A stretch of 64,000 bases of DNA from Naegleria gruberi (lineage: Eukaryota), in assembly GCA_000004985.1 (NCBI GenBank), contig GG738935.1, one strand, 5' to 3'. The notes below the pieces were generated by a model. That model saw nothing but the letters and a program-made list of their open reading frames with translations. It did not search any database and was not told the DNA's origin. Shown here piece after piece: positions 9,001-62,159 of the stretch; the first letter of the stretch is position 1, and each line of letters opens with the position of its first letter. The translations under genes were made by a program, and so were the position numbers.

Positions 9001-10588
9001 AATTGCTGTATCTTATTATCTTGTGAGAATGGAACCATTTACTAGAATTTTCTTTGAATTCAATGATGGAAAATTGGATTTACCAGATAGAACATTCCAC
9101 TCCTTAAAGAAATCTTGGGAATTATCATCAGGAGAAACTCAATCCAAATCAGATTTCAAAGAACTTACTCCAGAATTCTTCTACTTGCCAGAATTTTTAC
9201 AAAACAGAAATCGTATTGATTTTGGTATTTTACAAAATGATAAGAGTTTTGATGATGTAGAATTACCACCTTGGGCTAATGGTGATCCTGTTTTATTTAT
9301 TAGAAAGCATAGAAAAGCTCTTGAATCTGACTATGTTTCTCGTAATTTACATCACTGGATTGATTTAATATTTGGTTACAAACAACGTGGAGAATCTGCT
9401 ATTAACAGTTACAATGTATTCCATTACATGACTTATGAAGGTTCTCTAACTGATGAAGTTGATTTAATTGATGATCCAATTACAAGAGAAGCCAGATGGA
9501 CTCAAATCTGTACCTATGGTCAAACTCCAAAACAATTATTCAAAAAAGCTCACCCTGAACGTTATGCTACAACTAATCTTATGGGAGGTGAAGAAGATAC
9601 TATCAATGTCATTCCAATTACAAATTACATTTTCAAAGTTGCAAATGAATTATCTCCTGGAAATATTAGAATATTCAAAGAACCTGTTGCTGATATTTAT
9701 ATTAGAAATGATCAAACAACTCACAATAATAGTGTTATTGCTGTTGGAAAGTATAAGATTTTCATTCCTCCAAGTGGACAAGAACGTAGAAATTCACCTG
9801 TTTATCTATCTTATAGACATTGGGATAAAACATTGAGAATTGAAAAGTGGGATAATGGAAAGCAATTACACATCTTCCACTTTATGAATCAACCTGAAAT
9901 TTACAAATGTGCCAAATTCTCACGTGAAGGTGATATGCTAGTTGTTGGTACTAATATTGGAGCATTGCACGTTTTTAGAGTTAACAATAGAATTAAGATT
10001 CACAATAAGAATACTCCAGATACAACAAATGTTAATACTGATAAGGATAACAAATTCTTGGACCATGTTGCAACTCTGAGTGGTCATTCTGATAGTGTTT
10101 TATGTGTTGCCATCTCAACTGAATTTTCAATGATTATTAGTGGTTCTCGTGATTCTTGTATGATGATTTGGGATTTGAATAGATTTAGATTTGTTAAATC
10201 AATTAAGCATGATGGTAAAGTCACGTGCATTGCCACTTCACCAACAACAGGTGATATTGCCTCATTCTGTCAAAACAATGTAAATGGACAAAATCACTTG
10301 TATTTATGGACTGTTAATGGTGATTTGATTTCATATTGCAACATTAGAGCAAAGATTACATGTATGAAATTCACCTGGATGGATGAAGGTATCAATCAAA
10401 ATGTTCTTGTTTGTGGTTTGGCCAATGGTACTATTGCTATATTGGATGCTTTAGGTTTGAAGGTTATTTCTAAACTCAAAATTACTGACTATACTTCACC
10501 AATTAGATCAATTGAAATTAACTCTCCAATGACAGAGATTGTTGCTGGTGACGACAGAGGTTTTGTTGTGAGTTGGTACAAGAAATAA
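2..10588 (+). CDS. BEACH-domain protein with C-terminal WD40 repeats (LvsA/neurobeachin/LYST-like). 5' partial: the reading frame is open from the window edge. No introns in 10.5 kb.
   Basis: 3522-aa continuous ORF. Canonical BEACH domain (WVEGTISNFEYLMHLNILAGRSFNDLTQYPVFPFIL...HYGSHYSTPIAVSYYLVRMEPFT...WIDLIFGYKQRGE..NVFHYMTYEG) at about nt 8700-9560. A PH-like region precedes it and WD40 repeats follow (about nt 9860-10560). Stop TAA at 10586-10588. The track start at 20 is TTG; the frame is open upstream to the window edge, so the N-terminus lies outside the window. Confidence 0.9.
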   Translation, partial: SPIQERLAEYIQVYYTYSTSSEQYKIREVLTTEDTNPCIILSNLLLQISKKSVNVFVEVFQWTSLWKIVIDIFKNLSKFDEERMNIEHFIQFCNFTSLSFGNMFLHASKDIRKLIELSSSKVFMEMMQYLEQFVNSAENESKKFKTLEKVAILYVIEIYVWGLFTSLHLIPNLLIEFQHCDGYDLLKKVFYAINNSEKSESSQDCFLLQFQQQKMLTILHVMINLVLELTTHIQLVNQEEAIQEQLGKCKRNQHVFGLLVYLYNHTDMSKIGSDFLCKRELLDHLLSNLTLFHEEYFKILYNSEPFKYICENFTSTSKEMQIQVLKTFDHYIQLFTLLDSSNETQVDENLICRDFNEYLKLLLTNHDMFLDSIMRVCNHLISKIQDKSIYHKIQLLFRNSGFTKLILQSIDIKQRNNQVMAKLVQLIYLFLEGNLDNHKDFMGQLTPKSNPLYKLLYDEELIGETLPVIKMIVVNDKSQTWDFIISDLLEIMFINNLDESSFNSMYSNIHQSHNSSVKFCEKHLRMCEKILCCIRKMFLENENVKNSFRKCKGYEKIINLLVLNSTNLECYDLVFSIVQSCINLLILSMNENSDNEIYFKKFITFSSLLSPLHKCGFVKSYEHGINLTMNLLQFSVMDYGLYEPNNSDRFRKLIEEKVLLFENPEMIPEVILKLYGRNLSEIDPKLSNFLVDMLFRLVKYSTNRHRLSRAKSLLILMKEFTTVLLEPSHYLSNRITKLLMLLGAHNFSPREMQYYFTLFTPDRLNTIIQSSNNNGNSLTSTTNSNSFISILNSSGNSGSNSNSNSTEMIASSPLPILPSTKTINNLLKTLLELGEQTFIPNYYIDFSPLNKDKVFRYDDLTQLKSKRLRLFSSSSSKMAHDREERILLKRTLNTFSSILFPKMNYSSWPSEKGHTTTLWFRIESNSNSKISLFSFSSHVNSMVFNVSMTPDMKLNIEMERTNEKLEWTETFSNYEFKLYQWYFIGINQQLIQLQDKIEHKFGLFVNGFHVQEVVHQESIDKSIMDMFKSFLSFSQTSLEFIVMGSNAYDMSKTVNQTMKSVNKRSGSLKSTLSINTSNIASNSSTSVGLHIPSPINNNNTTNNLLLNSARSSSSSLSSNTAPVHGHNANVTAQSPSDEDNSALANQQEKLFTCPAFQLGNMFFIEECLNDEEMYMMYHLGPNYMGNFDEDLSQYFCNEMINEESVVKFKNKIYYMKDCSNNVGLSQLTNRFVFAFSSVDASLITRIAQQSQSNSLDSVDIVFSNNKKKKMASSNTSSSSSSTSNSSSKVAATPSDSNASTPMSVGSPTPSPSTVTASSSSNSNNTASSDASSSSSSGSGSGSGSSSNSNVVYNVSDIRSYIPNRNYNNANALNYQKTTNFTSIKCYLSGKTTLVSKCTFKGNLYVIGGMKAILGLYAKMKDPSSKIYTLLLLSYLMKNNSLNTSEMLRLGGYDMLNYHFLSSKDSQFEITPSVLLALLVMCGLDIPNDVIVNSVNLKVRDICKRGVINNFMAFEKLLLDYRIWHTNAKVDTLKKMLKCLAELVSSSFRSKVNEHHRAILLTTANGVKRLLFAMSQSYVVGEKIDWPIKIINPTIKILKCIIPTPISMTYVYPIVQYIILTHHQDYAQWMNENNMNNNYMPQLTTTTTIGTSEDGSNNHLDSHYGNVEIIEPRKSVLNMFYNLIEEAPEDVLEDFHSVLPTGQIIALLNTKSNLIRCILLKMLGVYLSRKETLKDQFIKSNAAHLLTLQLLEVGNPSLLEFQVMFDLMLGLFNNNTTTAAAADYSNDYIASPVKTRRNSIILSSGATSGGIDSIDDLLELGEGDDDKTALQRTSLFLPTSISHAAFLLPKSTSGSCSSNGRDSSDSSPTKKRSRSVYFKSMNAATIASSPTNTNTALNSTATSSSSSSTTSGKSLHIPSSSDSPMGFTNYNTTPKGSSSSRYITTNRLKNSISLIKYEFSQFEFREFLTPILRLIPCIKDIEEKINVFETICRLFKNGGEKLKLYFYEIKAHWYIQVYLSNLPKDNPHTKKFIKLTLDFIIDYVNYSILNIPKQYLGQYGLKGSVEILTNILQYLLVMEKSSYDIIFIQNMQRYILQGVLAFFQKNYLFHEKSKTLKKDKQLQKKEKKIKGHLSAVFISFCTCATDYIIQWFDLPPEPPVTNEETTTGKISMMGSSAIAQKYGNISGTRRNITRMFDDSSNNSLNTTTGSHTLKTSTSMIFEKQHIEDESPTVQSESNNTEDNPQLSQFKNVQFIDNYVGTDDTTQTKTVKIQQDQAWDQRSLSSKIFHNYERTLSQDASSSSEEEEGNDSTLFSHNIHDISGFIYWFIDSIRKCLVIQKKGSSKSSRTGSFYDENQDFTPITTPEFILVEQLKRIFMFLLDSKRSKPDHIFTLLQLLYFFPFHSELIIHDLLQEPPGYQEMVNCGKLLKSFCSDTKYITRLLFRTANLFDKTDTILPQLNRKVWKVIISTCKDYLKKNIFPKTFDPNDPDFVSMVEEASTVSENISSLIFEPSVIDQVREWESNEFSTFNSKLTAVTEVILKSEESDKKKDSNIRKNLRNEQTQLELNKIKYMKPHMLKLKSIKDTDLQARKQWKMLVKFIQEDVSSFNVYFHTTNSYCDKTIKTRSTITTTRSHVTKENDYHRLSFSPYDDETFENVDYKLDSTSGPNRVRMRMKRQLKKRPFNIDEFQSETQLTNVQSSQKKRSVKFSEITTVHGGNGSNTNLNNSQDDDEVTSSSTTTTTTLNENSYHLSISTIILEPKKCKRITPLRITEGDLILGEDGVYFIASCSYPLTIRTNSSSTNHSKQLEMKKTYNFSYEEIREIHNRRYLLKNNALEFFLLNGKSFFFAFDDGETRDRVLSILSSPSSRFNYLSLTPNLNLLNLVNYEEEVNGKLIFKKSITQKWVEGTISNFEYLMHLNILAGRSFNDLTQYPVFPFILRDYDSKELDLSDPNTFRDLKKPMGALNEKRLEKIIQQYENLKDVEDQIPYHYGSHYSTPIAVSYYLVRMEPFTRIFFEFNDGKLDLPDRTFHSLKKSWELSSGETQSKSDFKELTPEFFYLPEFLQNRNRIDFGILQNDKSFDDVELPPWANGDPVLFIRKHRKALESDYVSRNLHHWIDLIFGYKQRGESAINSYNVFHYMTYEGSLTDEVDLIDDPITREARWTQICTYGQTPKQLFKKAHPERYATTNLMGGEEDTINVIPITNYIFKVANELSPGNIRIFKEPVADIYIRNDQTTHNNSVIAVGKYKIFIPPSGQERRNSPVYLSYRHWDKTLRIEKWDNGKQLHIFHFMNQPEIYKCAKFSREGDMLVVGTNIGALHVFRVNNRIKIHNKNTPDTTNVNTDKDNKFLDHVATLSGHSDSVLCVAISTEFSMIISGSRDSCMMIWDLNRFRFVKSIKHDGKVTCIATSPTTGDIASFCQNNVNGQNHLYLWTVNGDLISYCNIRAKITCMKFTWMDEGINQNVLVCGLANGTIAILDALGLKVISKLKITDYTSPIRSIEINSPMTEIVAGDDRGFVVSWYKK
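4001..4038 (+). repeat. (AGT/GGT/GGC)n microsatellite encoding an SSSGSGSGSGSSS tract inside the BEACH CDS; part of a 200-nt Ser/Thr/Asn-rich low-complexity segment (3820-4040).
   Basis: agtagtagtggtagtggtagtggcagtggcagtagtagc read directly; the frame is preserved. Confidence 0.8.
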
Positions 10589-21923: not shown

Positions 21924-22968
21924 TTACATTTTATTTGGTTTTAAGGTAATAATTACCAGCACTAGTGCCATTAGCAGAATTACAATTTCAAGAATTACTT
22001 TCATAAATCCCTTCTTAGTTTCTCCACCGTCATTTGAATCAAAGCTACTACTAGTATTCGAAACAGTTGATTCATTTCCATCACTGTCACTATCATCACA
22101 ATTCTCAATCATTTTCAATATTGATAGCATGTAATATATTCTGATCAGTGGTTTGATTTTCACACCAATTGCCTTATTCAAAATCACTCGCTCAATAAAT
22201 TTGGATTCCAAAATTGGTAGATTTTCTCCATATTTCAAAACAATTCCTTGTTCTTGCATGAATTGTTTTAGAAAATCTTGATTGGTGCAAAAGTTCAGTA
22301 TTGTGCTAATGATATTCCTTGTTAAACATTCTTGAGCTGTATTTCCATTCCTAGATTCTCTAATATTTACATCAATTCCATTCTCTATTAAATATTTAAC
22401 AATTTCAATACTATTGTAATGAGTGCAATAGTGTAACCATGAAAAATTGTGAGATTCTTCACAGATATCATTAATGTGAACTATTCCATTATCAATTAAG
22501 TATGTAGCACATTCCAAATTATTTACAAAACAACATTTTCTCATTGCTATCAATGGATTCAATCCAGAATCTATCAATACTTTCAATTCGTTCGCCTTCG
22601 TCTCCTTTCCAATACTTGTATCTTCAAGCATTTTACTATTTCCAGTTCCTTTATATCTTTCCTCTTCAACTCTATAACAAGTAATCATATTAGTAATTCT
22701 TCTATCTTTTGGAACTGACACAAAAACAGTCNNNNNNNNNNNNNNNNNNNNNNNNNNNNNNNNNNNNNNNNNNNNNNNNNNCCGATCTCAACATTCCATG
22801 AAATGTTCTTTCGAATAAAATTGCATGTGTGCGATCACTTTTATATGAAGTCAATGAAAGGTCAATACTTCCATCATCATAATCAATATCATTTTCATCA
22901 TTTTCTTCTTGTTGGCTCAATTTTTTCAAAGAGGCCGATGTTAATCTTGCATTTCTTGTTTTGTACAT
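21924..22968 (-). CDS. Ankyrin-repeat protein with a C-terminal transmembrane anchor. The CDS spans a 50-N scaffold gap (22732-22781), so the true length is unknown.
   Basis: ATG at 22968 (MYKTRNARLTSASLKK...). Downstream of the gap: ankyrin repeats (YLIDNGIVHINDICEESHNFSWLHYCTHYNSIEIVKYLIENGIDVNIRESRNGNTAQECL) and a C-terminal hydrophobic segment VILEIVILLMALVLVIITL. Confidence 0.6.
22732..22781. other. Scaffold gap (50 N) inside the ankyrin-repeat gene.
   Basis: Run of exactly 50 N. Confidence 1.
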
Positions 22969-24006: not shown

Positions 24007-24241
24007 TTTTTTATGTTTGTTATTTTGTCCTCTTGATAATTAGCACGAGTTCATTAAATAGCAATTTTATTGTGAGACATTTATTCACCTTCTAAAATAT
24101 GATTAGATCTGAGATAAATAAAAGGGTGCTCTGAAATTTTGTCAACTGAGTTCCAGGGATTTCCTTGAACTTTTACCATGTTCATGCATTTACCATGTTC
24201 ATGTGAAATCAATTAAAAAATTATTACGCTCGCCACGTTTA

Positions 24242-24312
24242 CCGTCTCGGGAGGAATCGAACCTCCGTCAATGGATTCAAAGTCCACTATGCTACCATTA
24301 CACCACGAGACG
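24242..24312 (-). tRNA. tRNA-Gln (anticodon UUG), 71 nt, CCA not encoded.
   Basis: The reverse complement folds as a cloverleaf: acceptor CGTCTCG/CGAGACG, U8, D-arm GGTGTAATGGTAGCA, anticodon stem GTGGA/TCCAT with loop CTTTGAA (anticodon TTG), T-arm GGAGG-TTCGATT-CCTCC, discriminator G. The 5' base is C (C1:G72), which is unusual for eukaryotic tRNA-Gln, so the exact ends are uncertain by a nucleotide. Confidence 0.75.
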
Positions 24313-24538
24313 AGCACATTAACGTCAAATTATTAATTGTATTGTTTCTAAAAATTTTTGAAACAGGCAAAGAATTGTTTACCGTTCAACGGAGTGGTGA
24401 TGGTACTTTTTCGTTTGTAACAATTAAAATAATAAATGATTTGTTTACATCTGCTTTTATTGTGACTTCCAACAGCATCCAAGTACACTTGCGTGTTGAA
24501 ACTTGGAGTATTGGTGTGGAGAATTTGGTTCAGAGGAT

Positions 24539-26644: not shown

Positions 26645-26697
26645 TTTTCAGAATAATATTCAATTTATTTTCAATTAAAATCACAACTTGGCAAAAG

Positions 26698-26733
26698 TGG
26701 AGTCATAGGGAATCGAACCCTAGACCTTCTGCA

Positions 26734-26764
<31 letters not shown>

Positions 26765-26770
26765 AACCCC
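26698..26770 (-). tRNA. tRNA-Ala (anticodon UGC), 73 nt.
   Basis: Reverse complement GGGGTTATAGCTCAGTTGGTAGAGCGTCTGCTTTGCATGCAGAAGGTCTAGGGTTCGATTCCCTATGACTCCA. Acceptor carries the G3:U70 Ala identity pair, D-arm GCTC/GAGC, anticodon loop TTTGCAT (TGC), T-loop TTCGATT, discriminator A. Confidence 0.9.
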
Positions 26771-49584: not shown

Positions 49585-51603
49585 TTAGAATTTGATTAGA
49601 AAATAGTTGAAATTCGCAAACTTACCATCACCTTCTATTGCCTTTTCCTTATTAATTTCAAAAACAATAGACGAAACTCCATTCGAATTTTCATCCGAAT
49701 CTAGTAACAGCTTATCAACTGGTCGATACACAAAATGATGTTTCGTATTCTCGTTCAATGTACTCTCATCACAAACAATGTTACAATGTAGCGAAGAAGC
49801 AAGTAAGGATAATTTCTCTGCATTCGAAGGAACATTTCCAACAATAGTAAATATACGAAACGAATGAGTTCCCAAATTTCCTGAATTGCTCTTTCCAGAA
49901 CTAACGCCAATAGAGCATTGAATATGGGATTGAGAAGTTTTGTTGATTGTAGAAATGAGCTTTCTCAGTTTCAAAGCAGCTTCTAAGGCAAGAATATTCG
50001 AAGACTTTCTTCCAATTCCATCCGAAACATAAATTTGATAGTCATCGACTGTTATTACTTGTAAGTCGCCTTGAATATTCTTTGCAATGACTGTCATTCC
50101 AGAAATAATCTTTGCAAACAAGTTTCCAACATCAACACTATTCAACTCTTTCGAATATTTCTCAAGTTTCACCCTAATGACTGAGCATTGTTTTCTATTC
50201 AACCCTATCTTAAACAAAGAATTACTCGTCTCTTGGATTTTCGAAATCATTGATGAGTTTGATTCCAAAACTCCATCATGTTGAGATTCTAATTCTGATG
50301 AAGCTTCATGTTTAGTTTGACTTTCTACACCATTTTTCTCAAGTTCAATACATCGTAATTGAAGGAAAACACTCTCTGGTATGAATGTTTTAATTTCATT
50401 CAGCCAAACTGTCATTTCATAAAGATACATATAAATTGTGTCAACTTCTGAAAATTTGCTTCCTGAAATGTTAACATTTTCAAGTTCCATAGTTTTGATT
50501 TTTCTAAACTCTTTTTCTAGAATTGTAAATGGATGAGTGACAGTATGGCTTATCAAAATTGACATTATAACACCAAATATGATAATGAGAATGGTGATAC
50601 CAACAGAAACTCCAGAAGTTATATTCGAAACTAGCTCAATTTCCTTCTTCTCAACCACAACAAAGACATTCCACTTTAGGTTGACTAAAGAAAAGTCCAA
50701 TTTCACAACAAAATGATTTTCCACTTCGAAAAACGATGGAGCTGCTTCCCAACTACCAAATTTCTTAAAAGAACTTTCTAATACGAATCCAGCATCCGAA
50801 TCTATCAAATCAAAAATAGAAACTCTAGAGAAACCATCCAAAGCAGTAGTGTTGATATTCCCTCCAATAACCATATTGTTTGTTTCTGCCACAATTACAA
50901 AACCATTTTTCAAAACGTCAACTGTCTTGAGAAATGTCTGAATAATTCTTAATGAAATATTTGTCTTGGCAAATCCAACTACCTGCTTCACACCCATCAT
51001 GTATAAACTTGGTTCAAACAGTTTAACACAATAATAGGTCGTGTAACTTGGATTTCCTGGAATTGCATATGGAATTCCAAAAGCTCCGTCAAGATTTTTG
51101 AAATTGGATAAAGTGACAGTCCAATAACTTTGTGAGATTGTTTCATAGTTCGGGCTTTTAGTGACCATTTTAGTTGAAGTGATATTTGGTGATTGGGTGT
51201 TTAGTCCAATTGCATATAGAACTTTCTCGTCTATTGGTTTCGTATACCAAACTGGAAACTCGCCACCAATTAGTCCAAAAACATTAACACTATTGAGCGA
51301 ATCATTGAAAAATAAACCAATACCGTAAGGTTTGAATCTAATAAACATTTTGTGCAAATACGAAAGTGATGGAATCTTTGGAATAATCTGCAAATTGAAG
51401 TCATCAGCAATAGATTCAGTTGCTGCAATATATGGTCTCAATTGACCATCCATATAATGTAAAACTGAATCTCCAACACTTGACATGAGCTCAAATGACA
51501 TGAAACTCATTGCTTCCCTTGATCCAACAAATGAAGTCAACCAGATCATGAGAGAACAGGTCAATAACAATGTGGTGATGAGAATAATGATAAATGTGCG
51601 CAC
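49585..51603 (-). CDS. Receptor-type nucleotide cyclase-like protein: signal/TM N-terminus, Cache-like ectodomain of about 300 aa, single TM, and a C-terminal class-III cyclase-homology domain with degenerate catalytic motifs.
   Basis: N-terminal hydrophobic RTFIIILITTLLLTCSLMIWLTSFVGS (the track start is GTG; an ATG 30 nt upstream is in another frame, so the start is uncertain). Ectodomain with Cache-like segments (YYCVKLFEPSLYMMGVKQVVGFAKTNISLRII). TM ITSGVSVGITILIIIFGVIMSILI. The C-terminal QCSVIRVKLEKYS....VIAKNIQGDLQVITVDDYQIYV....IQCSIGVSSGKSNSGNLG..FRIFTIVGNVPSNAEKL follows the CHD pattern (..VTILF.DIVGFT....VK.IGDAYM....GIH.G.VVAGVIG......Y...GDTVN.ASRM), but GDAYM is DDYQI and the terminal GD.VN is GN.VP, so it may be a pseudo-cyclase. 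Confidence 0.45.
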   Translation of the reverse strand: MRTFIIILITTLLLTCSLMIWLTSFVGSREAMSFMSFELMSSVGDSVLHYMDGQLRPYIAATESIADDFNLQIIPKIPSLSYLHKMFIRFKPYGIGLFFNDSLNSVNVFGLIGGEFPVWYTKPIDEKVLYAIGLNTQSPNITSTKMVTKSPNYETISQSYWTVTLSNFKNLDGAFGIPYAIPGNPSYTTYYCVKLFEPSLYMMGVKQVVGFAKTNISLRIIQTFLKTVDVLKNGFVIVAETNNMVIGGNINTTALDGFSRVSIFDLIDSDAGFVLESSFKKFGSWEAAPSFFEVENHFVVKLDFSLVNLKWNVFVVVEKKEIELVSNITSGVSVGITILIIIFGVIMSILISHTVTHPFTILEKEFRKIKTMELENVNISGSKFSEVDTIYMYLYEMTVWLNEIKTFIPESVFLQLRCIELEKNGVESQTKHEASSELESQHDGVLESNSSMISKIQETSNSLFKIGLNRKQCSVIRVKLEKYSKELNSVDVGNLFAKIISGMTVIAKNIQGDLQVITVDDYQIYVSDGIGRKSSNILALEAALKLRKLISTINKTSQSHIQCSIGVSSGKSNSGNLGTHSFRIFTIVGNVPSNAEKLSLLASSLHCNIVCDESTLNENTKHHFVYRPVDKLLLDSDENSNGVSSIVFEINKEKAIEGDGKFANFNYFLIKF

Positions 51604-52611
51604 AGAAATGATTCCACCACATTTTGTTTTTTGGATGGGTTTGATAACTGATCTTTCTTCTACAATAGTTTCATCATTCTAATAGAAATGGTGGAATGTT
51701 ATTGGAAATATGTCTTAGAACAAACCTTTTGGAATGAATCAATAGGTTGAATTTTCATTCTTTTTTTGATCTTGTGTGAGTTCATTACCATTGCTATTCG
51801 AAAGTTTAGAATGCAATTTGAAATAATGAATTTGGTGATAGATTCGAAAGACTGCTTGTGATTGAGGTGGTTTCAATTCAAATCATCACTAATTTAAGAA
51901 TAACTGTTTGCCTGATAAGAGCTCTAGTTCATTTTCCATCTCTTTCGAATATATTATTCGATTCAATCCCATCTCTCTTCCAAACATATTGTTTTCATTC
52001 ACTATAAACAATCAAAGTTTCTTCATCATAATTTTTAAAAGAACCTCATTTCATTTAATACGAATCTGATTCAAACTTGTTGCACCTCTCAACAGGTCAA
52101 ACTAAAGAACAGTAATAATAAAGGGAGCCTGAATCCAAGCGTTTTAAACAATGTAAAGATCCATTAGACAAGCTTTGAAAGGTTCCTAATGGCAATATGA
52201 ATTAGAGAAAGTAATGATGCTAAGGAATTAATGATGCCACTCTTGATTTGCTTGGGAAGATGAAGTATGAACTTTATAACTCAAGTATTATCATGATAAT
52301 TAGAGAGTGATAATGTGCGTGATAAGCTTTCTGTTGGGTTCATCCTTTTCAATCAACATTGTCTCGATTGGAAAGTTTTGTCTACACAAGATAGATCCAT
52401 ACCAGTTTAATTAAACTCATTTACAATATTATTGTAATCTTACCAATTATTATCAAGACAATATGACCAATACAACAGAACATGAGAGGATACCGGCATA
52501 TTCTTGAAACACACATTTCTTTTCCAATTTGCACGTTGAATAGTGATTTTCCTTTAAATTTCAACAACTATTTCATTTCTATTCTAAACATTCTGAAAAA
52601 ATTAAACAATA

Positions 52612-52940
52612 TGAATAAGATTTCTTTCTGTATTGTCCTTGCTTTGGTTCTCTTGCTTGCTTGTGCTGTTAGTGCTCAACAACAAGAAAAATCATCCAAC
52701 TCGGTTTCTCTTTTGAGAGATATTATTCGTAGAATGTATCCAAATGCCTCTGATAGTCAAATTGTCAAGAAATTGTTCCCAAGTGTTAGAAAGTTGAAGA
52801 AGAAGGCAAGTGATAAGTTGCTTAATTTGATTTCTTCTTTGAGTGATTCACAAGGATCTGATTGTTCAAAGTATTGTGCTGGAAGTACTGGAGATTACAA
52901 GATTTCATGCTTGCAACATTGTCACCGTAATAATTTGTAA
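52612..52940 (+). CDS. Small secreted protein (109 aa) with signal peptide and a C-terminal 4-Cys module (CSKYCAG...CLQHC).
   Basis: Start moved to the ATG at 52612 (MNKISFCIVLALVLLLACAVSAQQQE). A basic K-rich middle precedes the Cys module. It is convergent with the large receptor gene, 95 bp away. Confidence 0.45.
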
Positions 52941-53035: not shown

Positions 53036-56000
53036 TTAGATAGACATTCCAACCTTTGAGGTGAATTTTTCTCGTTCTGATTTCAATTTTTGCCAAGAGG
53101 TATAATCTTTAGAAACTCCAAATCTTGAGTAGGTATCAGAAAGGTTTAGTACAATGTCGCTTTTTAAAGTGTCCAAAGCTGTTAAAAATTCTGATTGTGA
53201 AGCTTGTTTTTCAAATAGAGATATGAATAGTTTTCTGGTAGGATTTGGAATATTGACTTCAAGGGGACTAGATGCACTCAAATATTTATCGCGGAAAGCT
53301 GAACAATCTTTGATAAGATTGGAAGATGTGTTGAGTTCCAAAATTTCATTGTAACATTTCAGATTCTCAAGGGAGAATTCTTTTGTACAAAAATTTTCGA
53401 ATAATTTGGCACCCAATTCATCACTCAATAATTCTACTAATTCTTGAGTAGCATCCTGTTCCTTCTTGACTGAATTTCTGTAATTTTTAAAGTAGAAAAT
53501 GAGTGACAATCCTCCAAATACGAAAATGTACAACACAAAGTAAACTACTGTGAGAATCAATCTGATAATTTCCATAATTAATGAGATTTCAAAGGTTGAA
53601 ACAGTAGTACTCAACTTGGTGCTGTAATTTGAAGTAAAAAGCCCAAGATTTACAATACCGAATACATAGGAAGATACCAATACTAACAGACATATAATGA
53701 ATAGTAGAGTTTCAGATCTGAATAAAAGTGGATCGTCCATGATAAAGAATCTATAACCGTTCGATGAGTATTCCTTGACCAGCTTCACAGCCTCTTCAAC
53801 TGAAATTATGTCCTTCTTATCTTTTCGACTTGGAACATCTTGCAATTCCACAGTTGACTCTTTCAATCCACTATAGGAACCAGCTTTAGATTTGTTCATT
53901 TTCATGTATCTGTTATAACTCAAAATCAAATCCAAAACGAACATGACAGAAAGAGCTACCAATGCAAGAACTAATATAGCTCCAATAAAACTGGAGGTAG
54001 CTATCGTATAGATTTTAGAGGTTAGTCCAGAAGAGTTGTCAATTACCTCTTGTGAAATTCTAGCAGCTGCCATTCCTCCCATGTAGAGGAAGATGAATAC
54101 AAAGAGTAAAAGAACAGAAACAATGTAAATACCTTTAGAGGTGATGATATTCAACAATTGGAGAGATTTTGTTTCTGATCTTTGCAATAGGGAATACATA
54201 TTTCTGAGGAGATGATATCTTGTAGTTTGAATTAAAAAGGAGAGAACACTAATGCTGAGAGCTACTCCCAAAATGGTAGAAGAAATGTAGGTCAATGAGT
54301 TGAGTGCTATTGGAGAGTAATCAGATCCTGAAACAGAATATCCAAGCATGACAGCGCTTTTTGTGACACTTCCCAAAAGAGCGTCCAAGAAAATGCATAC
54401 CATTCCAATGAAAGGAGCAACATATTTAGCTTTGATTGGCTGCTGATTTCTGTAAATGAATAGCAAAATGAGCATGACCAAACTAACAATGCAGATAATA
54501 AACCCAATACCTATTTGGAATCCCCACAACACGTGATAGGCAGTCTTTTGCTCAGAGGTATAGTTTTTGATATTTGACAAATCTTGGCTTAGTTCTACAA
54601 ATACAGCAAATTGAGTTGTGTGGTATGCCTTCATATTAATCGAGTAGTAAATTGTTCCATTGACATCTTTTGTTGAGTAGCTGCTGACAGTACATCCATT
54701 TGTTCTCCAATCCGATACTGTTTCATTCCAATATCTACAAGTAATATTCTCCATGGAAATGTTGTTAGTTTTGAGAATTGAATCCAAACTAGATGCTTCT
54801 ACCTCAAAGTTCAATGAAATTGGATCTGAAAGATCTGAAAGTGGAAAATATTCTCCGCCATTATCAATACATCTCAAAGACAATACGTTACTGACAATTT
54901 GTGAGCTGTTATCTTGATTCTTGTCGGAATTTGGATTCTCACTGTAGAGCACATATTCTGTACCAAATAGATCAGAATCGCTCACTGCTTGCTTCTTTCC
55001 TTGAACCACAGTTCCTGGCGGAACAGTTATGGCATTTGAGCTACCCATGACCACCTCACTACTGTTATAAGTCGATCCATAATCTTTTCTAACAATGAAG
55101 GTCAACTTGTCAGTGATGAGAGTTTTTTCCTCTGAAGGTGAAATGGAATCCACAATTGAAGCTGAAAGTAATTTGATAGAACTGATAAGCTTTGACCTAA
55201 TGGATTGGTTGATTTGGATTATATTGGATAAGGAAGAGCATACACTAGAAATGAATGAGGAGTCAATTCTACCCAATGGTTGATTTTTAGAACTTTCTCC
55301 TGTGAATGAGTTGGATCTTGCATCAATTCTAATAATGTTAACAAACTTTTGAATTCCACTCACAATGTCACTCTCCATATCGATGGCCATTGTTGACAGA
55401 TATTGAGTCGCATTGAAAGACCACATTTCCAAAATTTTAGCTGCAACCATGATATTCGAAACTGCCTTTGAATATTCAGTCTTGTTATTTGGATTAGTGA
55501 TTGGTGTTTCAATAGTGTTCAACAATGAAATAAACACTCCAAATGCTGATCTCTGAATGAGGTCAATATATTTTGGATCACCTCCATCATAGGCTTTCTG
55601 TACCATTCCCATGAGTGATTTGATTTGAAACGAATCGACGGTACCCTGAATAACTCTATTCCTTAAATTTTCCATGAATGGATAAACAGAATCGAGAGGA
55701 ACTGGACAAACACACATTCCACCACTCAAAACAAACACCCTATTCAATCCATAATATCTATCATAAACGAATAGCACTGGATTTTGTCTATATTCCAATG
55801 GTGCATTATCCAAAATCATTGTATTATTAAAATGTTCTGCATTTCTTAGAGAAAATCCTGGAGGAAGGTAGGATTTGTGTAGCTTGCTGGAAGAATATGG
55901 TGTAATCTGAACTACATATTGTGAAAGTTCAGAATTTGGAATGTCAGCCATTCCTGATTTAATGACAACATCTGAACCACCTGTCAAACGAGTAGCAAGT

Positions 56001-57193
56001 TTTGCATTCACATAACCAAAGGCAAACATCAAGTTGGAATCTGCTGGAGTATTAGATTGATCGTCATACACAAATGGTGCTGTGACATTGAAGGTGAATT
56101 CTATTGTCATCTTTTCCACAAGTGGTGAAATTGAAAATACTGAATTAAATTGAGCAAATTGAGGGAAAAATCTTTTTGGTGTTTTCAAATAAATATCATT
56201 CGATCTTCCAATCATGATTGAAGTAGCACTTGTGCTATTCCACCATTTGGCAACACATGAAATTCTATAAACAGAGTCAAAATCAAAATCTGCATCTTCT
56301 GAGAAGGTCAACATGGAAATTCCCAATTGATTGGTTTGCTCTCTATCCTGAAGATAGTTAGTGACTTTCTCATAATTTCCCAACGTATTCTTAATCAAAC
56401 TAGTCTTTGAAAGAGAGCTTTTCATTTCCATTGTTTTATCACTTATTTTCACAATGTCCCAATTATATCTAATATTGGCATTTGAATTTTTCAATTTAGT
56501 ATTCAACTTGGCATTGATAAAAAAACTCTTCTTCATTGGCATGAATCTTTCACCTGTTTGTGAATCGATAGCTGGCTCGGGAAGCATTGGATTCATGGTT
56601 GAAAACGAAGGCATAGACAAATTTAGAGCCATCATTGAGTATCCACTCGTCAGAACAGTGTCCGTTCGATTTGTATTAAAAACATCAATCTCAATTTGTG
56701 ACAGAACTGGATTTGCCACTCCCAACACTGAACTCAGCACATTTAATAAAACTCCAGATTGCAATCCCATATTCACAACAAAAGTTCCCTCTATAAATTG
56801 TGCTGTTTTTGGTGATACTTTCACTGTGACTGTTTGTGAGAGCAGATCAACAGTCGGCAAATCACATGTGAAAAATTCCACTAAACTTGTTGAATTTGAC
56901 AAGAGTGGTGACACCAAAACTCCACAATTTATCACCTGGAATGTAGGTAGCAAGGGAATTGTCTGAAGACCTATTATTTGTGTCTTGATATAAAAATAGG
57001 GCGTTGTAGTAGTGGTCTGATATCGGTTCGTGCCAGAGATTGTGGCCGATGGATAAGAGATGAGAAAAGTTTTAGGTGTGGTTGAGTAGATAAAGTTAAA
57101 AATTGATGTTTGGAACGCGAGGATTGTTTGTGAGAAACTGCAACAACCCAATAAGAGGAGAAGAATGATGGCAGTTGCCAGTTTAGATGACAT
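53036..57193 (-). CDS. Giant receptor (1385 aa): signal peptide, 830-aa ectodomain ending in a GPS/GAIN-like motif, 7 TM helices, and a C-terminal RGS domain (adhesion-GPCR-like with an RGS fusion).
   Basis: ATG complement of 57191-57193 (MSSKLATAIILLLLLGCCSFSQT), immediately 3' of a 50-N gap. GPS-like CRYWNETVSDWRTNGC...YYSINMKAYHTTQFAVFVE (compare C..W.....W...GC......HL|T.FAVLM) at about nt 54600-54750. Seven hydrophobic helices between nt 53500 and 54560, with a roughly 90-aa ICL3. The RGS box ELVELLSDELGAKLFENFCTKEFSLENLKCYNEILELN...FRDKYLSASSPLEVNIP at about nt 53080-53430 matches the RGS consensus (F..FL..EFSEENL.FW.....Y). Confidence 0.6.
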   Translation of the reverse strand: MSSKLATAIILLLLLGCCSFSQTILAFQTSIFNFIYSTTPKTFLISYPSATISGTNRYQTTTTTPYFYIKTQIIGLQTIPLLPTFQVINCGVLVSPLLSNSTSLVEFFTCDLPTVDLLSQTVTVKVSPKTAQFIEGTFVVNMGLQSGVLLNVLSSVLGVANPVLSQIEIDVFNTNRTDTVLTSGYSMMALNLSMPSFSTMNPMLPEPAIDSQTGERFMPMKKSFFINAKLNTKLKNSNANIRYNWDIVKISDKTMEMKSSLSKTSLIKNTLGNYEKVTNYLQDREQTNQLGISMLTFSEDADFDFDSVYRISCVAKWWNSTSATSIMIGRSNDIYLKTPKRFFPQFAQFNSVFSISPLVEKMTIEFTFNVTAPFVYDDQSNTPADSNLMFAFGYVNAKLATRLTGGSDVVIKSGMADIPNSELSQYVVQITPYSSSKLHKSYLPPGFSLRNAEHFNNTMILDNAPLEYRQNPVLFVYDRYYGLNRVFVLSGGMCVCPVPLDSVYPFMENLRNRVIQGTVDSFQIKSLMGMVQKAYDGGDPKYIDLIQRSAFGVFISLLNTIETPITNPNNKTEYSKAVSNIMVAAKILEMWSFNATQYLSTMAIDMESDIVSGIQKFVNIIRIDARSNSFTGESSKNQPLGRIDSSFISSVCSSLSNIIQINQSIRSKLISSIKLLSASIVDSISPSEEKTLITDKLTFIVRKDYGSTYNSSEVVMGSSNAITVPPGTVVQGKKQAVSDSDLFGTEYVLYSENPNSDKNQDNSSQIVSNVLSLRCIDNGGEYFPLSDLSDPISLNFEVEASSLDSILKTNNISMENITCRYWNETVSDWRTNGCTVSSYSTKDVNGTIYYSINMKAYHTTQFAVFVELSQDLSNIKNYTSEQKTAYHVLWGFQIGIGFIICIVSLVMLILLFIYRNQQPIKAKYVAPFIGMVCIFLDALLGSVTKSAVMLGYSVSGSDYSPIALNSLTYISSTILGVALSISVLSFLIQTTRYHLLRNMYSLLQRSETKSLQLLNIITSKGIYIVSVLLLFVFIFLYMGGMAAARISQEVIDNSSGLTSKIYTIATSSFIGAILVLALVALSVMFVLDLILSYNRYMKMNKSKAGSYSGLKESTVELQDVPSRKDKKDIISVEEAVKLVKEYSSNGYRFFIMDDPLLFRSETLLFIICLLVLVSSYVFGIVNLGLFTSNYSTKLSTTVSTFEISLIMEIIRLILTVVYFVLYIFVFGGLSLIFYFKNYRNSVKKEQDATQELVELLSDELGAKLFENFCTKEFSLENLKCYNEILELNTSSNLIKDCSAFRDKYLSASSPLEVNIPNPTRKLFISLFEKQASQSEFLTALDTLKSDIVLNLSDTYSRFGVSKDYTSWQKLKSEREKFTSKVGMSI

Positions 57194-57196
57194 TTT

Positions 57197-57246
57197 NNNN
57201 NNNNNNNNNNNNNNNNNNNNNNNNNNNNNNNNNNNNNNNNNNNNNN
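57197..57246. other. Scaffold gap (50 N), 3 nt upstream of the receptor gene ATG.
   Basis: Run of exactly 50 N. Confidence 1.
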
Positions 57247-58642: not shown

Positions 58643-59566
58643 TTATTGAGAGAATTTAATGAAACAATCAAATAATTTGTTGGTAAATCGATATGGTTTT
58701 GGTGGATATAAATGTCTTTTGAAAAACCAAAAGCAATCATCAATAGTTGGTCTCTGTTCTGGATCTTCACTTGTCATTTGATCAATGAAACTGTTCACAA
58801 GTGACAATATTGAATCTGAAACCTTAACCCGTTCCAATATTTGAGAAATAGTTATTCCCAACGAATAAATATCCAAACTTGGTAAATAGTCAAATTCCTC
58901 ATCACCAATTCTTATTTCTGGAGCTTTGATTTCTGAATTATAGGGCTCTTCCTTATAACCAATTTGACATGAACTCCAAGTTCCTCCCAATTTCACAAAA
59001 TATTTCCCTTCCTCATCAGAATAGATATGTATATGAAATGGAATGATATTTCTGTGAACAAATCCTTGTTCATGCAATGATTTCACACCCTTAATTAGTT
59101 GTAAAACCCACTCCAATAAAATCTGATCACTCTCATTGCAATGAATAACCTTCTCGCCATTCAAAAATTCTAGAAGAGAGCACTCAGATTTTGGAATAAC
59201 AATTTCAAGTTTTGAAAAGGATTCTTCCACAATTTGATGATCATTTCTCAATATTTCAACTTCAAGATAGCTGTCAGATATTTGATTATCAGGAACCTGT
59301 TCAAAAATAACATCTACCATCGGAACGAGATAGGGAGAAGATTTCACAATTAAATTCATAAAATATTCATTCCCAGATTGAAATGAATACATGAAGAATT
59401 CCTTGTCTGTGTTCTTTTCTTTGACAGTCGAGACCAAAAAACCTGAACCATTCTGATTGATGCTAATGACCTCATATTCCTTCTTGCTTTTGCAAAGAGA
59501 GGATGTAGAATGGTTGTTTAACATTTTTTTAAAGTGTGAAACAAAACGTGATTGATATTTCAACAT
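58643..59566 (-). CDS. Protein-kinase-like domain protein, predicted pseudokinase.
   Basis: The C-lobe is recognisable: HEQGFVHRNIIPFHI has the catalytic-loop HRD replaced by HRN, and VKLGGTW has no DFG. APEIRIG (APE), DIYSLGITISQIL (subdomain IX) and DPEQRPT (subdomain XI) are present. The N-lobe Gly-loop is degenerate (NQNGSGFLV) and the VAIK lysine is unclear. Start moved to the first ATG at 59566; the track start is TTG. Confidence 0.5.
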   Translation of the reverse strand: MLKYQSRFVSHFKKMLNNHSTSSLCKSKKEYEVISINQNGSGFLVSTVKEKNTDKEFFMYSFQSGNEYFMNLIVKSSPYLVPMVDVIFEQVPDNQISDSYLEVEILRNDHQIVEESFSKLEIVIPKSECSLLEFLNGEKVIHCNESDQILLEWVLQLIKGVKSLHEQGFVHRNIIPFHIHIYSDEEGKYFVKLGGTWSSCQIGYKEEPYNSEIKAPEIRIGDEEFDYLPSLDIYSLGITISQILERVKVSDSILSLVNSFIDQMTSEDPEQRPTIDDCFWFFKRHLYPPKPYRFTNKLFDCFIKFSQ

Positions 59567-60190
59567 AACCAAATAAACCTGGTTTTACTTTAGATTTAGA
59601 ACAATACATGAAGTTTCTTCTTTGTGAGTTCAGCTTTAAAGACGAGGAAAAGTTTCGTCTACATTTTTCATGACAGAGTTCCTTCTATTTTTTGAAACCT
59701 GTACTGGTAATCTGACATTCTAATTGTATGCAATCAACACCTAAAATCTTACATTCCAAAATGAACTTGTTTCTTAAACTGAAAAAAAATGGACAAACTT
59801 GATCATACGCAAATAAATAAGCCACAACCAAATGCTCAAAAAGAAGATATTCATTCGAAAGAGAGCATACTGGAGAAAATGAGAAGGGAAGGAAGGTTAA
59901 TAGAAATACAATTATCACCAGCAGAAGCCGAAGAATATTATGAAATGCATGCTTGAGATTCGCAAAACTTAACCTAAATGCCTAAACCTTCAAAAACATT
60001 CAATAACTTTGATGGTAGGGGAGAATGCCATCTTGTATTGTCAAGGAGATGATGATTGATCAAGAAAGAACAGGTGTTGATAAGGTAATTTATCATTTTT
60101 GCTTCTTGTTGGAGATGGTTATTTCAAACACCTAATACAACATTCTCAAAAAGATTCTTTCTCCTTTTCACCTTATTAATAATTGAAATT

Positions 60191-60240
60191 NNNNNNNNNN
60201 NNNNNNNNNNNNNNNNNNNNNNNNNNNNNNNNNNNNNNNN
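60191..60240. other. Scaffold gap (50 N) on the 3' side of the TNP2-like element.
   Basis: Run of exactly 50 N. Confidence 1.
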
Positions 60241-62109: not shown

Positions 62110-62159
62110 NNNNNNNNNNNNNNNNNNNNNNNNNNNNNNNNNNNNNNNNNNNNNNNNNN
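62110..62159. other. Scaffold gap (50 N) interrupting the 5' end of the TNP2-like transposase ORF.
   Basis: Run of exactly 50 N; the transposase frame is open right up to the gap. Confidence 1.

What the first reader, a model, noticed from the sequence alone, without database searches (positions are those of the whole stretch)
53036..57193. 1385-aa adhesion-GPCR-like receptor with GPS/GAIN motif and a fused C-terminal RGS domain
A single intronless ORF combines a signal peptide, a large ectodomain, a GPS-like autoproteolysis motif (C..W.....W..NGC ... YHT|TQFAVFV) directly before 7 TM helices, and a clear RGS box at the C-terminus (LFENFCTKEFSLENLKCYNEI...). Receptor-RGS fusions such as plant AtRGS1 are self-inactivating G-protein modules. 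Combining one with an adhesion-type GAIN domain is unusual and could be an undescribed signalling architecture.
Basis: partly seen in the sequence, partly recalled or inferred. Interest (0 to 1): 0.7.

Follow-up and report, generated by a model that had tools for sequence, protein, structure and literature searches.

The report
Naegleria GAIN–7TM–RGS receptor, known family
This is a real, intact gene of the amoeba Naegleria gruberi for a surface receptor that joins an adhesion-receptor-type self-cleaving (GAIN) domain, seven membrane helices and a G-protein "off-switch" (RGS) domain. The design is one of a large Naegleria family already noted in the literature, so it is a divergent new member and not a new kind of signalling protein.

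Summary
Window 53036..57193 (-) is one 1385-codon ORF with a signal-peptide-like N-terminus, a roughly 840-aa ectodomain, a GPS-like motif ending in HT|TQFAVFV, seven hydrophobic helices and a C-terminal RGS box (Pfam RGS 38.2 bits, cutoff 23.9).

- **Organism:** the window is Naegleria gruberi; eight neighbouring ORFs match its proteins exactly.
- **GAIN domain:** real. The AF2 model's best PDB matches are BAI3, BAI2 and latrophilin GAIN crystal structures (E as low as 2e-9). The family profile hits ADGRL3 at 1e-10.
- **Not undescribed:** at least 73 cluster representatives among the top 150 (the nine named ones are Naegleria gruberi, N. lovaniensis and Willaertia magna) share GAIN+7TM+RGS. 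Bosch et al. 2022 reported 28 7TM-RGS proteins in N. fowleri, several with GPS motifs.
- **What is particular here:** this copy alone, against 78 relatives, lacks both distal GPS cysteines, so its GPS falls below the Pfam cutoff. Its ectodomain has no known domain. The ORF seems absent from public protein sets.

Most likely function: a receptor-GAP whose ectodomain and 7TM regulate RGS action on Gα. Moderate-to-low interest; a new member of a known kind.

The parts
53036..57193 (-). Complete 1385-codon ORF including the stop codon: N. gruberi GAIN-7TM-RGS receptor
   Evidence: ORF. (organism). (family).
57116..57193 (-). Signal-peptide-like N-terminus, residues 1-26 (MSSKLATAIILLLLLGCCSFSQTILA)
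   Evidence: Hydropathy peak 2.24 at residues 9-27. The cleavage position is inferred by eye; no predictor was run.
55577..57115 (-). Distal ectodomain, residues 27-539. No recognised domain. Shared only with three to four close relatives (P0016, P0018, P0088).
   Evidence: Pfam finds nothing at E<=1. Homology extends to P0016, P0018 and P0088. The whole ectodomain (residues 1-870) carries 15 N-x-S/T sequons.
55145..55573 (-). GAIN subdomain A, helical, residues about 541-683
   Evidence: AF2 model helices 2-144, pLDDT about 75-88. Foldseek aligns about 330-350 columns to the BAI3, BAI2 and latrophilin HormR-GAIN structures.
54593..55129 (-). GAIN subdomain B, beta-sandwich, residues about 689-867, ending in the GPS
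   Evidence: AF2 strands 150-328. Foldseek 4dlo E=2.3e-9, 8oek 7.5e-9, 8vti 2.9e-6. Family profile against ADGRL3 7wy5_R, E=1.2e-10.
54596..54739 (-). GPS motif, residues 819-866: C819..W822..W829..G833-C834 ... M854-K-A856-Y-H858-T859|T860-QFAVFV. The two distal cysteines are replaced by Met and Ala.
   Evidence: Pfam GPS 13.4 bits, below 22.5. Of 78 relatives, 75 match the full CxCxH[T/A]TxF pattern, and none of the other three lacks both cysteines. No CxC is hidden in the other reading frames.
54614..54622 (-). Putative autoproteolysis triad H858-T859|T860 (H-X-T)
   Evidence: These columns are invariant in 30 of 30 aligned members. HTT occurs in 73 and HAT in 3 of the 76 relatives that match the site pattern. 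Cleavage itself was not tested.
54596..54616 (-). Stachel-like last GAIN strand, T860-QFAVFV (compare the aGPCR consensus TxFAVLM)
   Evidence: AF2 strand 322-328 of model 1. F862 and F865 are invariant. In the 7TM-only model this segment has pLDDT below 50, so it is not predicted to dock.
53501..54532 (-). Seven-transmembrane domain, hydrophobic cores at residues 888-1231
53723..53923 (-). Long cytoplasmic loop between TM5 and TM6, residues 1091-1157, K/R- and D/E-rich. It ends in the family motif DDPLxFRxE.
   Evidence: 12 K+R, 10 D+E. Low pLDDT at model positions 566-590. Conserved F1158 and R1159.
53099..53437 (-). RGS box, residues 1253-1365, with EFSLEN, EVNIP and NLSDTYSRF motifs
   Evidence: Pfam PF00615 38.2 bits. 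PDB RGS16 and RGS8 alignments. Foldseek RGS8 2ode_D TMt 0.82, rmsd 2.0. Family conservation.
57197..57246 (.). Run of 50 N ending 4 nt upstream of the start codon (assembly gap or mask). The promoter and 5'UTR cannot be read.

Best explanation
The gene encodes a member of the lineage-expanded heterolobosean (Naegleria/Willaertia) family of GAIN-7TM-RGS proteins: cell-surface receptor-GAPs.

**Shown here.**
- An N-out/C-in polytopic protein.
- A secreted ectodomain ending in a GAIN fold directly before TM1.
- A 7TM bundle with a GPCR fold.
- A cytoplasmic RGS box that keeps the motifs aligning with the G-alpha-contacting segments of R4-type RGS proteins. In RGS4 numbering, from my own knowledge of the RGS4-Gi-alpha-1 structure, E1276/N1277 correspond to E87/N88, N1314 to N128, and D1353/R1357 to D163/R167.

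**Inferred mechanism.**
- The RGS box accelerates GTP hydrolysis on one or more of the many Naegleria G-alpha subunits. Some of these self-activate, according to Bosch 2022 for N. fowleri.
- Events at the ectodomain (ligand binding or mechanical pull on the N-terminal fragment) are passed through the GAIN/Stachel region and the 7TM. They change how well the tethered RGS box reaches G-alpha-GTP.
- Signalling is therefore gated by switching a GAP on or off, as in AtRGS1, and not by catalysing nucleotide exchange.

**This copy in particular.** The H-X-T triad and the Stachel-like strand are intact, but both cysteines of the CxC element are lost. Neither canonical GAIN-B disulfide can form. Self-cleavage is uncertain, and this copy may act as an uncleaved receptor.
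For: - **Architecture and topology:**
- **GAIN fold and homology:**
- **RGS:** Pfam hit above cutoff, alignments to RGS16 and RGS8, conserved EFSxEN / EVN / NLxDTxSRF columns across 30 members, and a close structural match to RGS8 bound to Gi-alpha-3 (2ode_D, TMt 0.82).
- **Family:** 397 representatives at E<=1e-3 and 51 at <=1e-30. Of the 150 best, 73 are colinear GAIN-B+7TM+RGS. Nine of ten representatives looked up carry names: N. gruberi paralogs, N. lovaniensis and Willaertia magna.
- **Biochemical precedent:** the RGS domains of N. fowleri 7TM RGS2-4 have GAP activity on Nf G-alpha-2, 3, 5 and 7 and bind the transition-state form. Some of those G-alpha subunits self-activate (PMC9283941).
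- **G-alpha repertoire:** N. gruberi is credited with 44 G-alpha subunits (PMC8584482).
Against: - No expression, cleavage or GAP data exist for this gene.
- The ORF is not in the public protein collections searched, so even its transcription is unverified.
- GPS is below the Pfam cutoff, and both distal cysteines are missing.
- AF2 does not dock the Stachel into the 7TM pocket (pLDDT below 50).
- How, or whether, the ectodomain controls the RGS box is unknown even for the N. fowleri proteins (Bosch 2022 discussion).
- A GPCR-fold 7TM could also act as a GEF.
Confidence: 0.6

Rival explanations
1. It is a true G-protein-activating receptor (a GEF) of adhesion type. Removal of the N-terminal fragment exposes the TQFAVFV tethered agonist and activates G-alpha. 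The cis-linked RGS box only sharpens or terminates the response, giving a self-limiting GPCR.
For: - GAIN domain with an intact H-X-T triad and a Stachel-like strand directly before TM1.
- Naegleria also has G-alpha subunits with slow, exchange-limited cycles that would need a GEF (PMC9283941).
Against: - No sequence relationship of the 7TM to adhesion/secretin or any other solved GPCR.
- No adhesion GPCR among the top structural matches.
- The Stachel is not docked in the AF2 model.
- The characterised precedent for 7TM-RGS fusions, AtRGS1, acts as a GAP and is not known to act as a GEF (PMC9283941, PMC8584482).
Confidence: 0.2
2. This particular copy is a degenerating or non-signalling paralog. 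Having lost both GPS disulfides it no longer cleaves or senses, and it serves at most as a membrane anchor for a constitutive GAP or as an adhesion molecule. It may be on the way to becoming a pseudogene.
For: - It is the only sequence among itself and 78 relatives that lacks both distal cysteines, and it has a 4-residue insertion in the preceding strand.
- GPS is below the Pfam cutoff.
- The ORF is absent from public protein sets.
Against: - The 1385-codon frame is intact in a 32-36% GC genome (P about 1e-45 by chance).
- All other invariant family positions are retained: C819, W829, G833, C834, HTT, F862, F865, P927, R992, D1088, F1158, R1159 and the RGS contact motifs.
- AF2 still models a confident GAIN-B sandwich (pLDDT 80-88 around the GPS).
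- Uncleaved aGPCRs such as BAI2 and BAI3 are functional (PMC13062082).
Confidence: 0.15
3. The single ORF is an artefact that joins two genes, so the RGS part belongs to a separate transcript, or the region is mis-assembled.
For: - A 50-N run lies just upstream of the ATG, and there are three more in the window.
- The N. lovaniensis counterpart is annotated as two adjacent gene models, C9374_004092 and C9374_004093.
Against: - The frame is uninterrupted from signal peptide to RGS.
- 73 independent representatives from several species have the same colinear GAIN-B+7TM+RGS order, with the RGS box starting right after TM7.
- The N. lovaniensis split falls in the ectodomain, not between the 7TM and the RGS: P0017 (860 aa) itself carries GPS+7TM+RGS.
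Confidence: 0.03

Closest known systems
Naegleria fowleri 7TM RGS proteins (Nf 7TM RGS1-4 and 24 others; Bosch et al. 2022, J Biol Chem, PMC9283941)
   Same: Same genus and same architecture: a complex extracellular N-terminus, a GPS motif, seven TM helices and a C-terminal RGS box. The RGS boxes of three members (Nf 7TM RGS2-4) were shown to be selective GAPs for Naegleria G-alpha subunits. Our protein belongs to the same sequence family as N. gruberi, N. lovaniensis and Willaertia members.
   Different: - The N. fowleri examples carry EGF-like and lectin domains; this ectodomain has no recognisable domain.
- This copy has lost the CxC cysteines of the GPS.
- I could not align it directly to the named N. 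fowleri proteins, because their sequences were not retrievable here.
Arabidopsis AtRGS1 (the prototype 7TM-RGS receptor-GAP)
   Same: A seven-TM N-terminal half fused to a cytoplasmic RGS box that deactivates a self-activating G-alpha. Signalling occurs by relieving the GAP (as summarised in PMC9283941 and PMC8584482).
   Different: - AtRGS1 has no large ectodomain and no GAIN/GPS (my own knowledge).
- Whether the two 7TM domains are specifically related was not tested, because no AtRGS1 sequence or AlphaFold library was available.
Metazoan/holozoan adhesion GPCRs (class B2: latrophilins ADGRL1/3, BAI/ADGRB2-3, ADGRG1/G6, and others)
   Same: - A GAIN domain (subdomains A and B) immediately before TM1.
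- A GPS with conserved C..W..W..GC, an H-X-T triad and a TxFAVxx Stachel-like strand.
- Foldseek E=2e-9 to BAI3 GAIN, and family profile E=1e-10 to ADGRL3.
   Different: - The 7TM is not 7tm_2-like by Pfam, by profile search or by structural ranking.
- The family uses HT|T, not HL|T.
- This copy lacks both distal cysteines.
- aGPCRs carry no RGS box and act as GEFs.
Polycystin-1 / PKD-REJ family (GAIN + 11TM)
   Same: A GAIN/GPS before the first TM helix. Six of 30 aligned family members carry a Pfam REJ domain and two carry PKD domains. The only word-index hits of the family profile were cnidarian PKD-REJ-like proteins.
   Different: This protein has no REJ, PKD or PLAT hit and no polycystin channel-like region. 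It has seven hydrophobic TM segments, not eleven.
GPR158/GPR179-RGS7-G-beta-5 complexes (class C orphan receptors that anchor an RGS protein)

Membership tests
7TM-RGS receptor-GAPs (Naegleria 7TM RGS family / AtRGS1-type architecture) | C-terminal cytoplasmic RGS box that passes a curated domain threshold | tested here: met
   PF00615 38.2 bits against a cutoff of 23.9, residues 1253-1365. Hits to RGS16, RGS8 and RGS2 in the PDB. Foldseek TMt 0.75-0.82 to RGS1, RGS8 and RGS16.
7TM-RGS receptor-GAPs (Naegleria 7TM RGS family / AtRGS1-type architecture) | Seven TM helices N-terminal to the RGS box, with a topology that puts the RGS in the cytoplasm | tested here: met
   [not shown]
7TM-RGS receptor-GAPs (Naegleria 7TM RGS family / AtRGS1-type architecture) | Sequence homology across 7TM+RGS to other Naegleria family members | tested here: met
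   phmmer E=5.8e-185 to N. gruberi XP_002671458, 1.2e-172 to N. lovaniensis C9374_004093, 3.4e-110 to Willaertia magna. 51 representatives at <=1e-30.
7TM-RGS receptor-GAPs (Naegleria 7TM RGS family / AtRGS1-type architecture) | G-alpha-contact residues of the RGS box retained (RGS4 E87/N88, N128, D163/R167 equivalents) | tested here: met
   EFSLEN (E1276, N1277), EVNIP (N1314) and SDTYSRF (D1353, R1357) align with the corresponding RGS16 segments. They are invariant or nearly invariant in 30 members. The RGS4 numbering comes from my own knowledge.
7TM-RGS receptor-GAPs (Naegleria 7TM RGS family / AtRGS1-type architecture) | GAP activity on a cognate G-alpha | not testable with these tools
   Shown only for the RGS domains of N. 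fowleri 7TM RGS2-4 (PMC9283941).
Adhesion GPCR (class B2) | GAIN domain (subdomains A and B) directly preceding TM1 | tested here: met
   The AF2 model has helices then a beta-sandwich ending 13 residues before the TM1 helix. Foldseek top hits are the BAI3, BAI2, CL1 and ADGRL3 GAIN structures, E=2e-9 to 3e-6. Family profile against ADGRL3, E=1.2e-10.
Adhesion GPCR (class B2) | GPS motif that passes the Pfam PF01825 threshold | tested here: not met
   13.4 bits against a cutoff of 22.5 in this protein. The threshold is met in its closest relatives (26.9-27.5 bits). 26 of the 30 aligned family members give a GPS hit at E<=0.01.
Adhesion GPCR (class B2) | H-X-S/T catalytic triad and a hydrophobic tethered-agonist strand (TxFAVLM-like) | tested here: met
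   H858-T859-T860 followed by QFAVFV. These columns are invariant in the family.
Adhesion GPCR (class B2) | Four conserved GPS cysteines forming the two GAIN-B disulfides | tested here: not met
   C819 and C834 are present, but the CxC positions are M854 and A856. Of 78 relatives, 75 match the full CxCxH[T/A]TxF pattern and none lacks both cysteines.
Adhesion GPCR (class B2) | Secretin/adhesion-type 7TM (Pfam 7tm_2, PF00002) | tested here: not met
   - No 7tm_2 hit in this protein at E<=1.
- None in 30 full-length members at E<=0.01.
- None in 20 isolated 7TM segments at E<=10.
- The 7TM profile finds no GPCR in the PDB at E<=10.
Adhesion GPCR (class B2) | Autoproteolysis at the GPS and Stachel-dependent activation | not testable with these tools
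   AF2 leaves the free Stachel undocked (pLDDT below 50), which is not informative either way.
Polycystin-1 / PKD-REJ proteins | REJ and PKD domains, a PLAT domain after TM1, and an 11-TM polycystin-type membrane region | tested here: not met
   No REJ, PKD or PLAT hit in this protein. It has seven TM segments. REJ and PKD occur only in some paralogs.

The most novel reading that the evidence does not exclude
The heterolobosean family, including this gene, couples a genuine GAIN/Stachel module to a 7TM that is not of the adhesion (class B2) type and that drives an RGS GAP instead of a GEF. If so, one of two things follows. Either the GAIN-7TM junction arose at least twice, or it predates Holozoa. 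[quoted passage not shown] It would also mean that tethered-agonist or mechanical gating is portable to a receptor-GAP. This copy, without the GPS disulfides, would be a natural experiment in cleavage-independent GAIN function.
Probability: 0.35. Interest if true: 0.6.

Novelty: new member of a known kind. Interest (0 to 1): 0.33.

Why it matters
For this single gene, little changes. It adds a divergent and apparently unannotated member to a family already reported in N. fowleri.

The family as a whole deserves more attention than the one paragraph it has had.
- It shows that a real GAIN domain sits in front of a GPCR-fold 7TM in Discoba, far outside Holozoa, and that the output there is an RGS GAP.
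- That bears on when the GAIN-7TM module arose.
- The N. fowleri authors frame G-protein signalling components as possible drug targets in that pathogen (PMC9283941).

A member that keeps H-X-T but has lost both GPS disulfides is a convenient test case for what the disulfides contribute to cleavage.

Tried and rejected
- **Word-indexed homology search.** It failed three times (whole protein, family alignment A1, 7TM alignment A3). It returned nothing, or only cnidarian PKD-REJ-like proteins, although the family members are in that collection. The exhaustive HMMER search was used in its place.
- **Dictyostelid origin.** This was my first guess from the AT-richness. It was rejected by exact matches of eight window ORFs to N. 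gruberi proteins.
- **Loss of CxC as a frameshift or sequencing artefact.** Rejected, because the other two frames carry stops and no CxC.
- **Paralogs or a G-alpha gene inside the window.** tblastn of the protein against the window found only itself. Pfam scans of 17 other ORFs found no G-alpha or RGS.
- **Public gene model at this locus.** Not possible to see. The exact protein is not on record, a neighbour look-up returned only a 3-kb metagenome contig, and another neighbour is not on record.
- **AFDB50 fold search** (for AtRGS1-type relatives): unavailable.
- **Background papers.** Anantharaman 2011 and Bradford 2013 are not held in the library.
- **One large alignment call** failed internally.

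Full report
**What is in the sequence.** Window 53036..57193 on the minus strand is a single ATG-initiated ORF of 1385 codons. At the local base composition (32-36% GC) a stop-free run of this length has a chance probability near 1e-45. C819-x2-W-x6-W-x4-C834 ... YHT|TQFAVFV lies at residues 819-866, and LFENFCTKEFSLENLKCYNEI lies in the C-terminal part. A run of 50 N ends 4 nt upstream of the ATG, so the 5' boundary rests on the signal-peptide-like N-terminus and on the similar length of the paralog P0016.

**Organism.** Eight other ORFs in the window are exact matches to Naegleria gruberi predicted proteins on one 87-kb contig (EFC36199-EFC36219). They include STT3, a nicotinamidase and a 3-hydroxyisobutyrate dehydrogenase. 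The remaining genes are ordinary eukaryotic genes: a BEACH-domain giant, dymeclin/Hid1, TrmO, an MFS transporter, F-box, ankyrin and LRR proteins.

**Domain checks.**
- Pfam finds RGS (PF00615) at residues 1253-1365 with 38.2 bits, above the 23.9 cutoff. It finds GPS only sub-threshold (13.4 bits against 22.5) and finds no 7TM family.
- phmmer against PDB sequences returns only R4-type RGS domains such as RGS16, RGS8 and RGS2.
- Hydropathy gives the N-terminal signal-like segment plus seven segments between residues 885 and 1237.
- K+R counts are 2/5/12/4 in the predicted cytoplasmic loops and tail against 0/1/1 outside. This fits N-out/C-in and places the RGS box in the cytoplasm.
- The RGS motifs EFSLEN, EVNIP and SDTYSRF align with the RGS16 segments that correspond, in RGS4 numbering from my own knowledge, to E87/N88, N128 and D163/R167. 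They are invariant or nearly so across the family.

**The family.**
- An exhaustive HMMER search with residues 186-1385 found 397 cluster representatives at E<=1e-3 and 51 at <=1e-30. Most align from about 220 residues before the GPS through to the end of the RGS box.
- Nine of the ten representatives I looked up carry names: N. gruberi paralogs (XP_002671458, 42% identity; XP_002675075; XP_002671779), N. lovaniensis proteins and a Willaertia magna protein. One N. lovaniensis pair, C9374_004092 and C9374_004093, consists of adjacent gene models that together look like the ortholog.
- Of 30 aligned members, 29 have Pfam RGS and 26 have a Pfam GPS hit at E<=0.01 (best 5.5e-11). Their ectodomains carry EGF/teneurin-EGF, REJ, PKD, RCC1 or NHL modules.
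- With local HMMs, 73 of the 150 best representatives have GAIN-B+7TM+RGS, 27 have 7TM+RGS only and 44 have RGS only.
- No representative is more than 50% identical to the query, and the exact protein is not on record. The ORF therefore seems to lack a public gene model. This is an inference.

**The GAIN domain is real.**
- A family profile hits adhesion-GPCR chains in the PDB: ADGRL3 at 1.2e-10, then ADGRG6, G1, F1, E5, CELSR1 and others. The matches span GAIN subdomain B, the GPS and TM1.
- An AF2 model of residues 540-1385 (mean pLDDT 79.9) shows a helical subdomain, a beta-sandwich ending in the TQFAVFV strand, seven TM helices and a helical RGS bundle.
- Its best Foldseek matches in the PDB are the GAIN/HormR crystal structures of BAI3 (2.3e-9), BAI2, latrophilin-1 and ADGRL3. 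RGS1, RGS8 and RGS16 follow (TMt 0.75-0.82).

**The 7TM is a GPCR fold but not an adhesion-type one.**
- A profile of the Stachel-plus-7TM region (alignment A3) finds no GPCR among PDB sequences even at E<=10.
- None of 20 isolated 7TM segments matches any Pfam 7TM family at E<=10.
- Foldseek gives only weak, mixed hits (Smoothened, class A, class B1) and no adhesion GPCR in the top 50.
- The free Stachel is not confidently placed in the model.

**What is special about this copy.**
- In the GPS alignment all 29 relatives read CxCxHTT.F..F. This protein reads M-K-A-Y-HTT-QFAVF and has a 4-residue insertion in the preceding strand.
- Across 78 relatives, 75 match the full CxCxH[T/A]TxF pattern, one has lost one cysteine together with its apparent partner, and none has lost both.
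- The change is not a frame artefact.
[quoted passage not shown] Cleavage competence here is therefore open.
- The family uses H-T|T where aGPCRs typically use H-L|T.
- The distal ectodomain (residues 27-539) has no detectable domain, and only three to four close relatives share it.

**Comparison with the literature.**
- Bosch et al. 2022 (PMC9283941) catalogued 28 7TM-RGS proteins in N. fowleri. They noted that a number carry GPS motifs and EGF or lectin ectodomains 'reminiscent of the adhesion GPCRs'. They showed that the RGS domains of three of them are selective GAPs for Naegleria G-alpha subunits, some of which self-activate.
- De Mendoza et al. 2014 (PMC3971589) already listed 7TM-RGS architectures in many bikonts.
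- The architecture is therefore described, although only briefly. No other paper in the searchable library links Naegleria with GAIN or GPS terms.
- A 2025 survey concludes that the GAIN-7TM module arose in stem holozoans. In the parts I read, its sampling lists no Naegleria or other Discoba, and 'Naegleria' does not occur in the text (PMC12716839). The heterolobosean family qualifies that statement, either as an independent fusion or as evidence for an older junction.

**Most likely mechanism.**
- Shown: the architecture, the topology, the GAIN, GPCR and RGS folds, and the conservation of the RGS contact motifs.
- Inferred: the protein is a receptor-GAP. Its RGS box deactivates Naegleria G-alpha-GTP at the membrane. 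Ligand binding or force on the ectodomain, relayed through the GAIN/Stachel region and the 7TM, changes that activity. This follows the AtRGS1 logic and the N. fowleri biochemistry.
- Whether this copy self-cleaves is unknown.
- Rivals, scored separately in the report sections: a true GEF-type GPCR with a cis-RGS brake; a degenerating, non-sensing paralog; and a gene-fusion artefact, which is very unlikely given 73 colinear relatives.

**Verdict.** The gene is a new member of a known kind, and its interest is about 0.33. That interest comes mainly from the little-studied family and its evolutionary implication, not from this gene alone.

Noticed in passing
window 53036-57193 (-): The 1385-aa product is not in the 15-billion-protein collection as an exact sequence. 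No 50%-cluster representative exceeds 46% identity to it, although neighbouring N. gruberi genes are present. The ORF therefore appears to have no public gene model.
   Followed up: partly
window 22732-22781, 57197-57246, 60191-60240, 62110-62159: Four runs of exactly 50 N (assembly gaps or masks). One ends 4 nt upstream of the start codon of the gene studied, which hides its promoter and 5'UTR.
   Followed up: no
window 49585-51603 (-): The next gene downstream on the same strand is a 672-aa ORF. It has an N-terminal hydrophobic segment, a second one mid-protein, and a sub-threshold adenylate/guanylate cyclase catalytic domain (PF00211, 20.6 bits against 21.9). It is probably one of the very large Naegleria cyclase family. 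Any functional link to the 7TM-RGS gene is unknown.
   Followed up: partly
window 52482-52940 (+): A small ORF sits between the cyclase-like gene and the receptor gene. From its internal Met (MNKISFCIVLALVLLLACAVSAQQ...) it looks like a small secreted, cysteine-containing protein of about 110 aa. It has no Pfam hit.
   Followed up: no
P0017 and P0088 (N. lovaniensis C9374_004093 and C9374_004092): The likely N. lovaniensis ortholog is annotated as two adjacent gene models: a 441-aa distal ectodomain and an 860-aa GAIN+7TM+RGS. This suggests a split or mis-modelled gene. It retains the CSCDHTT GPS.
   Followed up: partly
family members P0087 and P0028: Other natural GPS variants exist in the family. 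P0087 reads CGCDHTG, so it has no +1 Ser/Thr and is presumably non-cleavable. P0028 has lost one distal Cys together with the Cys of the G-C motif, an apparently coordinated loss of one disulfide.
   Followed up: no
[not shown]
   Followed up: partly
window 20-10588 (+): A 3522-aa ORF with PH-BEACH, BEACH and WD40 domains (neurobeachin/LYST-like). It starts at the window edge, so it probably begins upstream.
   Followed up: no
window 58643-59572 (-): A 309-aa ORF with a partial protein kinase domain (PF00069, 35.2 bits, profile positions 95-194 only). It may be a truncated kinase, a pseudokinase or a multi-exon gene.
   Followed up: no
window 24241-24313 (-) and 26697-26770 (-): tRNA-Gln(TTG) and tRNA-Ala(TGC) genes.
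   Followed up: no
tool behaviour (against 31, 38): The word-indexed protein search returned none of the Naegleria family members. They are in its collection and are up to 46% identical to the query. For this eukaryotic family, a negative result from that tool is not evidence of absence.
   Followed up: yes
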